DNA of 64,000 nt, taken from Gekko japonicus (taxonomy: Eukaryota). Both the position numbers and the translations under genes were made by a program. Positions 22,899 through 28,200 of this stretch are shown here, in pieces (position 1 is the stretch's first letter; every line of letters starts with the position of its first letter). Location of the stretch: contig NW_015172017.1 in NCBI RefSeq assembly GCF_001447785.1, positions 792,748 through 856,747 of the forward strand. The letters are read 5' to 3'. The notes under the pieces were generated by a model that searched no databases, was not told where the DNA came from, and saw nothing but the letters and a program-made list of their open reading frames with translations.

Positions 22899-25595
22899 TC
22901 ACGGGCCAGGCCACTGAACACCTCGCTCCACCTCCTCTTCCTGCCCTTCATCATCCATGGCCAGAAGGTCTTCTTCCTCTTCCATGTCCTCTCTGGGCCC
23001 CACGGTACTTTGTGATGAGGCGAGGTCTTCGGTGGAGAGCCTCCAGTCAGGTGGGAGGTGATGGCGGTTCCTCCGTATGAAGGTGAACATCTTCACATTG
23101 GCAGGGGTCAGCTCCTTGTGACAGCCGGCAGCCGAAACAGAGCCGGCGGTCTCAGTGAGGTCCTCGGAGAACACCGAAGTCGGCGGGCACCCGAAATGGA
23201 AGGCGGCGGCCTTGAACAGCGCCGGCCAGAGCCCCATCTTCTCCTGCCAGTAAAGCATCGGGTCGGCGTTCTCCCCGACGTGGTCCACGTTGTCACGGAG
23301 ATACTCCTCCACTTCCCGGCGGGCCGCGGCGGCGCCCCCTTCACTCGCTAGCCCCATCGCCGGGTCGCTTTTGGTAATGACCCTCCACCGCTTCATGGTG
23401 AACTGCCAAGCCGCCGAGCCAGGCGGGTTGCCGGAAGCGCCGGGCCGCTGGGGAGACAAACGGCCCGCCTGCGGGGGCTCGCCATCCGGTCCGGGCGGGA
23501 CGTAGGACCTTGCTGCCAAGTCAGTGAGATGCTCTCTTAACAGGGTGGCGTCGGCCGTATTGGCCCCGCCTAGCTTCATGGTGGTGATGTCCCGGAAGCG
23601 GGGGTCGAGGAAGGCGGCCACGCGGCAGACCATGCTGGCCTTCATCTCCCGAAGCTGGCCGTCCCCCACCAGGCAGTTCAAGGCCTGGGTGGTCAAGTGC
23701 GCTCCGGAGTTGTTGTTCTCCTGGTGGTAGCGGGTTCTCAGGGCCCGGAGCTGCTCCTCCAGGAACCACAGGAGAGGGAGGGCCTGGCAGAGAGTCGCAT
23801 CCGGCCGGGCGGCCAGCAAGGCAGCGTCTTCGAAGGGCTTGAGGATGTCCACCAAGCACTTCACCAGCTCCCAGTCCACCGGTGTCAGGTGGAAGGAGGA
23901 AGGGTCCTCGTCTTGGTCCCACAGGGCGCTAACGGCTCGCCGCTGCCGGAACAGGCACCCCAACATCCTCAAGGTCGAGCCGGATCTCGCCGGGGCCTCG
24001 GACCACGTCGGCTGATGGATACCCAGATTGGCTCGCGCTTCCCGGAGACGGCAGCGGGCGGCCGCCGAGGAGTCGTAGCGACTGCAGATCCTCCTCGACT
24101 TTTCCAAGAGCCGGGCGATCTGGGGGTCGGCTGCCAAAAAGACTTTTGTGACCCCCTTCAGGCAGCTGGCCAGGCAAGGGACGTGCTTGAGACGCTGCTC
24201 CCGGACGGCCTTGGCCACCCCGGTGCTGTTGTCCGAGACCACGCCACCAGTCTTCAAGTCGTACAGCCAGTCCTGCAAGACTTCCCGCAGTTTCTTGCCG
24301 CGCTCCTCTTCTGAGGCGGTCCCCTCGAAGGCGCACACGGAGAGGGTGGCGTGCTGCCGGGAGAGCGTGCCTTCCGACTCGGCCACCCAGCAGGCGGTCA
24401 CGGCCATGTAGGACACCGCTCGGCTGCCGGGCCACGTGTCTATGGCAATGTGGACGGTACGGCCTATGCTGCCCGCCACCGCTTGGCGCACCGTTCTGGA
24501 CAATACGTTGGACAGCTCCGGCAGGGCCTTGGTGGCAAAGAATGCTCGGCCGGGGACCTTCCAAAGGGGCTGGGCGGCAGCCATCAGCCGGCGGAACCCT
24601 TCGCTCTCCACGTAGGAGAGAGGCTGCATGTCCACGGCTAACATCCAAGCGGTGTCCGAGGCCAGCCGGACGGCCGTCGGGTGCGTGGGGGGGTAACAGG
24701 GCCGGCTCCCCTCCTGACGGGCAGGCTGGAAGGCCGGCGCGGGTTCGGAAACCACCACGGAATCCCGTGGCGGTCTCTCCTTGGGAGGCAGCAGGGGCGA
24801 AGGCGGGACCACCACAACCCCTGGCAAGTGGAGCCCGTGGTGGACCCTCAAGTGTTTGTGGAGGGCCGTGGTGCCGGGCCGGGTGCCACCGTCCTTGCCC
24901 CTCCTCACCCGTTTGTGGCAAGCGCTGCAGATGGCCACGCAGGGCTCTCTCGGATCCAGAGTGAAGTAATCCCACACCGCCGAGGTCGTCTTCTTGTGCA
25001 CCGGAGAGGGGGCAAAGTCCACCCCAGCTGTCGGCCCGTCGTGCTCACGCCCGCGCTTGGAGCGGTACGAAGGGGCTGAGAGGTGGGTCAGTGGGGTGAA
25101 GACACGCAGCGTCTCTACCCCAGCGTGGCGGTGGAACTTCCTTCCCAGGGCTGCGGGAGAAACATAGGAAGGGAGGAACGGAGGGGTGGCTGGGAGTGAA
25201 AGGCTACGGGGTGGGGATGGTGGTGTTCTCCCGGCAGCCTTCTCCTCTTCTTCCTCCTTCTTTAAGTATGAGAGCACCGCCTGAGCCTCAGCACGGAAGG
25301 GCTGTTTCACGGCCAGTTGGGTAGAAGCTGTTGGTGCCATCGGAAAAGCTCGTAGCTCCCTGGTTTCTTCCTCCTCCTCCTCCTCCTCCTCTTCCTCTTC
25401 CTCCTCCTCCTTCAGGTAGGAAAACAGATCATGCACTGTGGACTGGCAGGTTTCTTCTTTCTTCAGCACTGGCTCCTGAGGGGCATCGCCTTCCCCCCCA
25501 CTTGGGAAATGAGGTTCCTGCAGATGGACGGCCGCGGGCCTTCTGGCGGACGCTGCCGGCGGAGCTCGTCTCCCCCCGCCATGCCTCGGAATCAT
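22899..25595 (-). CDS. ZBED-like domesticated hAT transposase (BED zinc finger + RNase H-like hAT core + C-terminal dimerisation domain), 898 aa, single coding exon
   Basis: Uninterrupted ORF; BED finger SAVWDYF...CSAC...HLRVHH; IDTW, SDN, AAFLDPRF, DPMLYW, CPPTSVFSE motifs; splice acceptor TTTGTTTCCCCTGCAG| at 25608 followed by GCCATG at 25595. Confidence 0.9.
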   Translation of the reverse strand: MIPRHGGGRRAPPAASARRPAAVHLQEPHFPSGGEGDAPQEPVLKKEETCQSTVHDLFSYLKEEEEEEEEEEEEEEETRELRAFPMAPTASTQLAVKQPFRAEAQAVLSYLKKEEEEEKAAGRTPPSPPRSLSLPATPPFLPSYVSPAALGRKFHRHAGVETLRVFTPLTHLSAPSYRSKRGREHDGPTAGVDFAPSPVHKKTTSAVWDYFTLDPREPCVAICSACHKRVRRGKDGGTRPGTTALHKHLRVHHGLHLPGVVVVPPSPLLPPKERPPRDSVVVSEPAPAFQPARQEGSRPCYPPTHPTAVRLASDTAWMLAVDMQPLSYVESEGFRRLMAAAQPLWKVPGRAFFATKALPELSNVLSRTVRQAVAGSIGRTVHIAIDTWPGSRAVSYMAVTACWVAESEGTLSRQHATLSVCAFEGTASEEERGKKLREVLQDWLYDLKTGGVVSDNSTGVAKAVREQRLKHVPCLASCLKGVTKVFLAADPQIARLLEKSRRICSRYDSSAAARCRLREARANLGIHQPTWSEAPARSGSTLRMLGCLFRQRRAVSALWDQDEDPSSFHLTPVDWELVKCLVDILKPFEDAALLAARPDATLCQALPLLWFLEEQLRALRTRYHQENNNSGAHLTTQALNCLVGDGQLREMKASMVCRVAAFLDPRFRDITTMKLGGANTADATLLREHLTDLAARSYVPPGPDGEPPQAGRLSPQRPGASGNPPGSAAWQFTMKRWRVITKSDPAMGLASEGGAAAARREVEEYLRDNVDHVGENADPMLYWQEKMGLWPALFKAAAFHFGCPPTSVFSEDLTETAGSVSAAGCHKELTPANVKMFTFIRRNRHHLPPDWRLSTEDLASSQSTVGPREDMEEEEDLLAMDDEGQEEEVERGVQWPGP

Positions 25596-28088: not shown

Positions 28089-28200
28089 CAAGCCAAGATG
28101 GAAGGCGGCGGCGGCCACACTCGCTTTGCAGACGGGGAGCCCCACCGAAAGATTGCAAAAGGGACCCGAGCGAGTGACAGCTCCGTTGGCTTGCAACAGA
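28089..28200 (-). other. Candidate non-coding first exon of the ZBED-like gene, in a CpG island (5' limit unknown)
   Basis: Consensus donor TTG|GTAAGT at 28089/28088; CpG-rich region ~27990-28680; CAAGATGG YY1-like motif. Confidence 0.5.

What the first reader, a model, noticed from the sequence alone, without database searches (positions are those of the whole stretch)
22899..28200. Domesticated hAT transposase gene inside the histone cluster, head-to-head with H2B
Seen: an intact, CpG-rich 898-codon exon with no TIRs I could find, a proper acceptor 12 nt before GCCATG, and a consensus donor (TTG|GTAAGT, 28089) in a CpG island ~1.3 kb upstream of the divergent H2B-2, which has no H2A partner. 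The acidic triad appears kept (IDTW, SDN, FSE), but the hAT CxxH is CLAS, TRWNS is ARSGS and SERxFS is SEDLTE. Known: those motifs are needed for hAT cleavage, and ZBED1/DREF regulates histone H1 and proliferation genes. Inference: a non-transposing, possibly squamate-specific transcription factor co-regulated with the histone genes, and perhaps regulating them.
Basis: partly seen in the sequence, partly recalled or inferred. Interest (0 to 1): 0.72.

Follow-up and report, generated by a model that had tools for sequence, protein, structure and literature searches.

The report
Squamate-wide gene tamed from hAT transposon
This is a single-copy, spliced gene made from a transposon's cutting enzyme and shared by geckos, other lizards and snakes; it has lost conserved cutting-site residues, keeps an almost unchanged DNA-binding finger and likely works as a gene regulator, while its seat among histone genes is likely incidental.

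Summary
An 898-codon BED/hAT ORF (22899-25595, minus strand) is single-copy in this gecko genome. One assembled contig from a public run joins 28089 to 25607 across a 2,481-nt GT-AG intron, as predicted.

Domestication is well supported:
- 23 of 24 protein hits lie at 67-77% identity, and the 20 named ones are squamates.
- The BED finger is nearly invariant.
- Linkage to a neighbouring GPR4-like gene recurs in other squamates.
- The Hermes W319 equivalent is lost in 31 of 31 sequences and the CxxH histidine in 27 of 31; DDE is complete in 21 of 29.

RefSeq calls it 'ZBED6-like', but a tree rejects grouping with ZBED6. It belongs to a clade with three more single-copy gecko genes, next to tuatara proteins.

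The histone link is positional only. The gene is spliced, has no histone stem-loop and was barely seen in RNA reads. It is separated from H2B by about 1.1 kb containing a young repeat. Another H2B also lacks H2A, and a complement-factor-I-like gene sits in the same loose cluster.

Verdict: an apparently undescribed, misnamed squamate ZBED gene, likely a transcription regulator; histone co-regulation is unsupported.

The parts
28089..28247 (-). Non-coding exon 1 (5' UTR); 5' end not mapped, reaches at least about 28247; no ATG in the readable letters
   Evidence: X1 contig covers 28088-28215 and holds 32 further letters; no uATG
25608..28088 (-). GT-AG intron in the 5' UTR, 2,481 nt
   Evidence: (table 8)
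22899..25595 (-). Coding sequence, 898 aa, in one exon that begins at 25607
25239..25439 (-). Two N-terminal repeats of a motif of the form xxH(D/E)xLSYLK followed by an acidic run (aa about 53-75 and 103-119)
   Evidence: two copies in 29 of 31 family sequences, one in 2; none in 150 other relatives or 29 other gecko loci
24837..24983 (-). BED zinc finger (aa 205-253)
   Evidence: PF02892 E 3.5e-6; 53 of 66 columns invariant over aa 201-266 in 28 sequences
23163..24440 (-). RNase H-like core with insertion domain: D386, D455, C474-x-x-S477 (CxxH site), R537-S538 (RW site), E811
   Evidence: alignment to Hermes, tally, fold matches to Hermes
23070..23315 (-). hAT C-terminal dimerisation region (aa 761-842), weak match
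   Evidence: PF05699 E 0.0015, below the curated cut-off
27750..29398 (.). CpG island between exon 1 and H2B; holds the H2B TATA (29326), octamer (29240) and CCAAT boxes (29161, 29209, 29280; one reverse at 29128)
28690..28853 (.). Young dispersed repeat between the two genes' starts
   Evidence: 95% and 94% copies at 40989-41154 and 56300-56448
22669..22875 (+). MITE copy just past the stop codon, with its own 8-bp duplication; not a TIR of the gene; holds the nearest ATTAAA (22813)
25908..26110 (-). MITE copy inside the intron; not a TIR of the gene
29399..29852 (+). Divergent H2B gene with histone stem-loop (neighbour, not part of the gene)

Best explanation
This is a single-copy gene derived from a hAT transposase and conserved across squamates; it is spliced from an upstream non-coding exon, likely cannot cut DNA, and likely acts as a sequence-specific transcription regulator whose targets are probably not tied to the neighbouring histone genes. 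Shown: single copy, splicing, conservation across geckos, scincoids, lacertoids, iguanians, Varanus and snakes, and loss of the RW tryptophan. Inferred: an element of a lepidosaur hAT lineage became fixed in the squamate ancestor at the end of a histone/tRNA cluster and came under a CpG-island promoter with a 5' UTR intron. The BED finger would read a DNA motif, the dead RNase H/insertion/hATC body would multimerise the protein as in ZBED1, and the two new acidic SYLK repeats would recruit a co-factor.
For: Single copy: self match only, next genomic matches 36% and 35%. 23 of 24 hits at 67-77% over the core; the 20 named are squamates, then a drop to 29% in a tortoise. Geckos, the cordylid/skink pair, snakes and iguanians each pair up in the quick tree, on a long stem. 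Invariant columns: BED region 53 of 66, N-terminus 8 of 200, inter-domain loop 0 of 25. Whole-protein identity to the gecko copy exceeds that of the neighbouring GPCR in 7 of 8 species compared. The gene and a GPR4-like gene lie on sequences of the same length in 18 of 18 species where both were listed; accession numbers are 3, 5, 5 and 12 apart in four GenBank annotations and 2 apart on a 1.02-Mb Crotalus tigris scaffold. Spliced junction in one contig. W319 site lost in 31 of 31, CxxH His kept in 4 of 31, DDE incomplete in 8 of 29 across several lineages; in Kat1/Hermes the DDE residues and CxxH are needed for cleavage or hairpinning (PMC4763223, passages). ZBED1 and ZBED6 are precedents for such proteins as transcription factors (PMC7471704 and PMC3606216, passages).
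Against: No DNA binding, localisation or target was tested. dN/dS could not be computed, because no orthologue DNA was available. The junction rests on one contig of one run whose RNA status is a guess; the three raw RNA runs gave depth 1.7 or less on the exon in one run, none in two, and no listed junction read. The first Asp is kept in 30 of 31 and the triad in 21 of 29, and Kat1 W576A still cleaves, so loss of catalysis is inferred. Most RefSeq accession pairs are hundreds to thousands apart (uninformative), and the GPCR has a paralogue elsewhere. The AlphaFold model is poor (pLDDT 47.6, pTM 0.43).
Confidence: 0.7

Rival explanations
1. One reading: the gene shares a bidirectional promoter with H2B, is induced with the replication-dependent histone genes and feeds back on them.
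For: Divergent arrangement on one CpG island, exon 1 within about 1.08 kb of the H2B TATA. One reverse CCAAT at 29128. In Phrynocephalus and Crotalus adamanteus four accession numbers lie between this gene and the GPCR, as many as the gecko genes H2B, H2B, H4 and HNRNPC (identity of those four not seen). ZBED1 regulates an H1 gene (PMC7471704, passages).
Against: The true H2A/H2B pair in the window has 440 nt between ATGs, against 1,310 nt here from the donor, with a young 164-nt repeat in between. The gene is spliced and has no stem-loop; all 6 Rfam histone stem-loops follow histone genes. Read depth is near zero. The H2B at 33687-34163 is also unpaired. A complement-factor-I-like gene lies between histone genes of the same cluster. 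No hDRE/DRE site in five promoter regions. No histone motif in 20-30 kb around three gecko relatives and ZBED4. Only two gene models lie between the gene and the GPCR in Phrynosoma.
Confidence: 0.1
2. It works mainly through protein contacts or as a brake on related elements: a scaffold or SUMO-ligase-like factor, or a dominant-negative binder of hAT/MITE ends.
For: The twin acidic motifs and a strongly conserved segment at aa 726-790 (29 of 65 columns invariant) look like interaction surfaces. ZBED1 has SUMO ligase activity and ZBED3 binds axin (PMC7471704, PMC7786948, passages). The genome is rich in MITEs with 8-bp duplications.
Against: The most constrained part is the DNA-binding finger. 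No close autonomous relative exists in the genome, so a silencing role would have no evident target today.
Confidence: 0.12
3. It is a domesticated nuclease that still nicks DNA, like yeast Kat1.
For: First Asp in 30 of 31, DDE complete in 21 of 29, Cys of CxxH in 31 of 31. Kat1 lacking the equivalent Trp still cuts, and its CxxH mutant still nicks.
Against: The second Asp is replaced by G, H or N in 5 sequences, the first by T in 1 and the Glu by Asp in 4. The His is lost in 27 of 31. A needed activity would not be dropped repeatedly.
Confidence: 0.06
4. It is a recent or still mobile hAT element bounded by the inverted repeats on either side, or simply the reptile orthologue of ZBED6 as the database name suggests.
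For: 203-nt inverted pair around the ORF. RefSeq names 'ZBED6-like' or 'ZBED6'. The nearest atlas cluster is named ZBED6 (0.96).
Against: The pair are dispersed MITEs, one inside the intron. One copy only. Holding the family together with ZBED6 costs 137 log-likelihood units, p-AU 2e-56. One BED finger and a locus beside HNRNPC, against two fingers and ZC3H11A intron 1 for ZBED6 (PMC3606216).
Confidence: 0.02

Closest known systems
ZBED6 (placental mammals) and the ZBEDX/C7ORF29 group (Hayward et al. 2013, PMC3606216)
   Same: Ac-family hAT origin, BED + RNase H-like + insertion + hATC architecture, whole ORF in one exon, eroded RW/CxxH sites
   Different: One BED finger, not two; 24.5% identity over the core to P0126; separate clade, union rejected; different locus; squamate range; twin acidic N-terminal repeats
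ZBED1/hDREF (human)
   Same: Single BED finger plus hATC domain; model for DNA-binding, self-associating regulator
   Different: A separate domestication according to PMC3606216; no ZBED1 sequence was identified in my trees, so not tested directly; hDRE absent from the promoters scanned
ZBED4 (bony vertebrates)
   Same: Domesticated hAT gene with the same domain order
   Different: Multi-BED; the gecko has its own copy (L004, label recalled from sequence and BED count) on another contig and in another clade
Hermes transposase (housefly) and Kat1 (Kluyveromyces lactis)
   Same: Best PDB matches by sequence (E 2e-13) and fold (top 10 all Hermes); D, D and E positions align
   Different: RW tryptophan and CxxH histidine replaced; no TIRs of its own; single copy
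Gecko paralogues L002, L003, L005 and tuatara BED proteins P0120, P0132, P0264, P0265 (automatic annotation only)
   Same: Nearest kin: starred clades of 15 and 19 rows; 27-33% identity over the core
   Different: Other loci; no twin acidic motif; L003 keeps all catalytic motifs

Membership tests
hAT (Ac family) transposase-derived protein | BED finger, RNase H-like DDE core with insertion domain, C-terminal dimerisation region | tested here: met
   (hATC match below the Pfam cut-off)
Active hAT transposon | Own TIRs with 8-bp target duplication | tested here: not met
   flanking inverted pair are independent MITEs
Active hAT transposon | Several closely related dispersed copies | tested here: not met
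   one copy; next match 36% (draft assembly, best candidates only)
Active hAT transposon | DDE, CxxH and RW all intact | tested here: not met
   0 of 31 keep the Trp; 4 of 31 keep the His
Domesticated ZBED gene (general) | Single-copy orthologues at a conserved locus | tested here: met
   (synteny read from contig lengths and accession order, not from DNA)
Domesticated ZBED gene (general) | Transcribed as a host gene | tested here: met
   spliced contig in one run; thin support
Domesticated ZBED gene (general) | dN/dS well below 1 | not testable with these tools
   no orthologue DNA; protein-level constraint instead
Domesticated ZBED gene (general) | Sequence-specific DNA binding and regulation of host genes | not testable with these tools
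   inferred from BED conservation
ZBED6 | Two BED domains | tested here: not met
   one
ZBED6 | Lies in ZC3H11A intron 1, placental mammals | tested here: not met
   lies between H4 and H2B near HNRNPC; definition from PMC3606216 Table 1
ZBED6 | One clade with ZBED6 | tested here: not met
   AU p 2e-56 against P0126; P0126 named by the atlas at 0.99 and by recalled sequence
ZBED4 | Four BED domains, next to ALG12 | tested here: not met
   one BED; separate gecko gene L004 in a multi-BED clade; ALG12 linkage of L004 not checked
ZBED1 | ZBED1 clade, near DHRSX | tested here: inconclusive
   locus differs, but no ZBED1 sequence was placed in the trees
Replication-dependent histone-type transcription unit | Intronless with 3' stem-loop | tested here: not met
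   intron; no RF00032 after the ORF
Replication-dependent histone-type transcription unit | S-phase induction from a shared promoter | not testable with these tools
   no cell-cycle data

The most novel reading that the evidence does not exclude
A transposase landed in the place of an H2A partner in the squamate ancestor, borrowed the H2B promoter island, and became a squamate-only regulator of the histone locus. Its BED finger would bind histone promoters and its two new acidic repeats would contact histones or the histone-locus machinery. It would be one of a set of at least four undescribed lepidosaur ZBED genes, one of which (L003) may still cut DNA.
Probability: 0.08. Interest if true: 0.72.

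Novelty: new member of a known kind. Interest (0 to 1): 0.4.

Why it matters
ZBED domestication is described mainly for mammals and for old vertebrate-wide genes. This is a clade-restricted, strongly conserved candidate transcription factor hidden under the name 'ZBED6-like' in many lizard and snake annotations, which invites wrong inferences about IGF2 or muscle. With its gecko paralogues and tuatara kin it points to a lepidosaur round of hAT domestication that I did not find described. It is directly testable in gecko or anole cells. The process itself is well known, and the histone tie that made it striking is unsupported.

Tried and rejected
Flanking inverted repeats as TIRs: rejected. Orthology to ZBED6: rejected. 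A shared H2A/H2B-type promoter: no sequence similarity between the ZBED-H2B interval and the H2A/H2B pair's interval, and no reverse TATA.

Run search: no RNA holder listed on record. Only X1, X15, X16 and X17 of 20 listed runs were laid, and only on 25415-28215, so the body of the ORF, the 3' end, the start site and H2B were not examined with reads. Most reads laid there came from other MITE copies.

The AlphaFold model was low-confidence and was used only to confirm the Hermes fold. The atlas put ZBED6 first by features, which the tree overrides. The window protein is not in the protein collection letter for letter. Histone neighbours in other squamates could not be read directly.

Earlier findings of the scan: nothing. 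PMC10368747 gave no passage for the residue terms. PMC8186458 (Cosby 2021, transposase capture) is not held and may list relatives. No supplements were read; those of PMC3606216 could include lizard sequences.
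Full report
1. Observation. The window comes from a gecko: a named Gekko japonicus protein 100% identical to a gene beside the window lies on a contig of 1,140,486 bases, the length of G000:C12307. The minus-strand ORF 22899-25595 encodes 898 aa with a BED finger at aa 205-253 (E 3.5e-6) and a weak hATC match at aa 761-842. GC3 is 0.78 and CpG o/e 0.73 against 0.52 for the window. The acceptor is 12 nt before the ATG and the donor TTG|GTAAGT ends exon 1 at 28089. In run X1 one 383-nt contig (depth 7.6) covers 25415-25606 and continues directly at 28088-28215, removing exactly the predicted 2,481-nt GT-AG intron (table 8). 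X1 is only guessed to be RNA, but no second genomic copy that could supply an intronless form was found. The three raw RNA runs, of which 3-12% was read, gave depth 1.7 and 0.7 in the two coding-exon bins for X15, none for X16 and X17, nothing on exon 1, and no listed junction row (17 rows not shown). Expression is therefore real but low in those samples, and the junction rests on one contig.

2. Not a mobile element. The protein matches only itself closely in the genome; the next loci are 36% and 35% identical (67 of 1,018 candidates scored, draft assembly). Both arms are copies of a MITE with about ten copies in the window and 3,707 candidate places genome-wide, the 40 scored being 93-100% alike. 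Three copies inspected at 16751, 20642 and 22669 each carry their own 8-bp duplication (7 of 8 letters; read), and the 25908 copy lies inside the spliced intron.

3. A squamate orthologue family. A search with aa 195-860 returned 24 proteins: 23 at 67-77% identity (20 named squamates from geckos, skinks, a cordylid, lacertids, an amphisbaenian, a tegu, iguanians, a monitor and snakes; 3 unnamed) and one tortoise protein at 29% (only the 8,000 best candidates were scored). Most are named 'ZBED6-like'. A profile search of 1.84 billion representatives gave two family representatives and then more distant proteins (the tortoise protein was in the query alignment). Over 28 sequences, invariant columns are 53 of 66 in the BED region, 38 of 80 before the RNase H fold, 29 of 65 at aa 726-790, 8 of 200 in the N-terminus and 0 of 25 in a loop. 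Whole-protein identity to the gecko copy is higher than for the neighbouring GPCR in 7 of 8 species. dN/dS could not be computed.

4. Synteny. In the gecko the order is H4, this gene, H2B, H2B, H4, an HNRNPC-like RRM exon (55027-55323; name recalled from the sequence) and a single-exon GPR4-like gene about 45 kb from the donor. In 18 of 18 species where both this gene and a GPR4-like gene were listed with a contig length, the lengths agree; other species lacked one record. Accession numbers are 3 apart in Phrynosoma, 5 in Phrynocephalus, 5 in Crotalus adamanteus and 12 in Podarcis lilfordi, and 2, 16 and 21 apart in older RefSeq sets of C. tigris (1.02-Mb scaffold), Pogona and Anolis carolinensis. 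In the other eleven species RefSeq pairs are hundreds to thousands apart, which is uninformative if RefSeq numbering is not positional (my knowledge). A GPR4-like paralogue exists on other chromosomes (P0058, P0065), so the match is cleanest for the adjacent-number cases. Whether histone genes flank the orthologues was not seen.

5. Catalytic site. The profile aligns to Hermes (E 2e-13), and a poor AlphaFold model (pLDDT 47.6) finds Hermes as its top ten folds. I tallied 31 sequences: the window protein, 23 cluster representatives and 7 further species; isoforms, near-duplicates, a 54-aa fragment and the tortoise protein were left out. The first Asp is kept in 30, the second in 26, the Glu in 25 of 29 that reach it, and all three in 21 of 29. 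The CxxH His is kept in 4 (Arg in 26, Ser here) and the RW Trp in none. The Glu column lies near small indels, so its count is less firm. In Kat1, DDE mutants are dead, the CxxH mutant nicks but does not hairpin, and the Trp mutant still cleaves but barely joins (PMC4763223, passages). Transposition is thus very unlikely; residual nicking is not excluded.

6. Relationships. A quick tree of 110 cores and a careful LG+G4 tree of 37 place the family on a long stem (100/100). It is sister to a clade holding three more gecko genes (L002, L003, L005) and unnamed proteins (15 rows, 99/98), next to four tuatara proteins (19 rows, 97/89; named). ZBED6 (P0126; atlas 0.99) groups with the two-BED tortoise protein, and the multi-BED ZBED4 clade (label recalled) is further out. 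Forcing the family with P0126 is rejected (p-AU 2e-56). No tuatara protein exceeds 33% identity, so no one-to-one orthologue outside squamates was found; that is absence in these searches, not proof. ZBED1 was not identified among the rows. Unique to the family are two N-terminal LSYLK-type repeats with acidic tails, present twice in 29 of 31 sequences and in none of 150 other relatives or 29 other gecko loci (the pattern was drawn from the family and widened once).

7. The histone question. For: divergent orientation on one CpG island, about 1.08 kb from the mapped exon to the H2B TATA, and apparent retention of the locus. Against: the H2B promoter elements sit within 300 nt of its ATG, a 164-nt young repeat lies between the genes, and the interval shows no likeness to the window's true H2A/H2B interval (440 nt between ATGs). 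The H2B at 33687-34163 is equally unpaired. The gene is spliced and lacks a stem-loop. The cluster is loose: histone genes spread over about 699-829 kb of the contig among tRNAs, with a multi-exon complement-factor-I-like gene (FIMAC, Kazal, LDLa, trypsin exons) between them. No hDRE or DRE site occurs in the five promoter regions scanned, a weak test since this finger's specificity is unknown. No histone motif was seen around L002, L003, L005 or L004. Nothing shows co-regulation; chromatin-level sharing of the island is not excluded.

8. Mechanism. Shown: single copy, splicing, conservation pattern, motif loss. Inferred: an ancestral lepidosaur hAT element was fixed here in the squamate stem; the protein multimerises through its transposase body (as reported for ZBED1's hATC domain, PMC7471704, passages), binds a DNA motif through the conserved finger and recruits co-factors through the acidic repeats. 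I put domestication at about 0.97, a DNA-binding regulator without special histone ties at 0.7, and a histone-coupled role at 0.1.

9. Literature. Read: PMC3606216 (parts 1-2 of 4 of the text), and passages of PMC7786948, PMC10027918, PMC4763223 and PMC7471704. None of what I read mentions this gene. Searches for ZBED/hAT domestication with squamate, lizard, snake, gecko or lepidosaur terms, and for a squamate histone cluster, found no description (listings only). Subscription papers, Cosby 2021 and supplements were not seen.

10. Verdict. A real, automatically annotated but misnamed and apparently undescribed squamate ZBED gene: a new member of a known kind. Interest 0.4.

Noticed in passing
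L003:1135-3699 (+) = G000:C3929 about 481.8-484.3 kb: Single-copy gecko relative (next match 40%) of 854 aa that keeps every catalytic motif (ADIW, SDS, CAAH, ARWN, SERLF), with a database relative at 82%. Candidate domesticated hAT protein that may still cut DNA.
   Followed up: partly
L002:1387-3969 (-); L005/L014 (G000:C1797 about 120.8-122.8 kb): Two more intact single-locus relatives with broken triads and database relatives at 78-79%. L002 also has an acceptor-like TTTGCAG 10 nt before its ATG. With tuatara proteins they suggest a lepidosaur ZBED set.
   Followed up: partly
window 21442-21580: 139-nt, 90% copy of the start of the coding exon (25473-25611), ending at the acceptor, set inside an older repeat 1.3 kb past the stop codon; perhaps a templated insertion from the gene or its mRNA.
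   Followed up: partly
window 31800-31920 (+): TATA box, a few codons reading APKKK-stop and a degenerate histone stem-loop in quick succession; looks like the relic of an H1 gene with its body deleted (H1 ending recalled).
   Followed up: no
window 9335-9754 (+): This H2B reads SIYDVYKV, one residue longer than the SIYVYKV of the other two H2B genes; variant or assembly error.
   Followed up: no
L047-L050 (G000:C12307 about 732-754 kb, minus strand): Complement-factor-I-like multi-exon gene inside the histone/tRNA cluster; the cluster is bounded by a GATase_5 gene (PFAS-like, name recalled) on one side and HNRNPC-like and GPR4-like genes on the other.
   Followed up: partly
L037:8598-9764 (-): Single-exon GPR4/OGR1-like receptor with hits in squamates, turtles, an alligator, palaeognath birds and marsupials and no placental among the 50 listed.
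   Followed up: no
proteins P0132 (tuatara) and P0143 (unnamed): hAT cores with a B-box (Pfam PF00643) or a RING-like N-terminus (read): possible TRIM-transposase fusions.
   Followed up: no
L046:3-2741 (-): Open endonuclease plus reverse-transcriptase frame of at least 913 aa, a young non-LTR retrotransposon in the cluster.
   Followed up: no
Lacerta agilis records XP_033024930.1 and XP_033024931.1: Two different 893-aa proteins of the family on one chromosome; possible local duplication.
   Followed up: no
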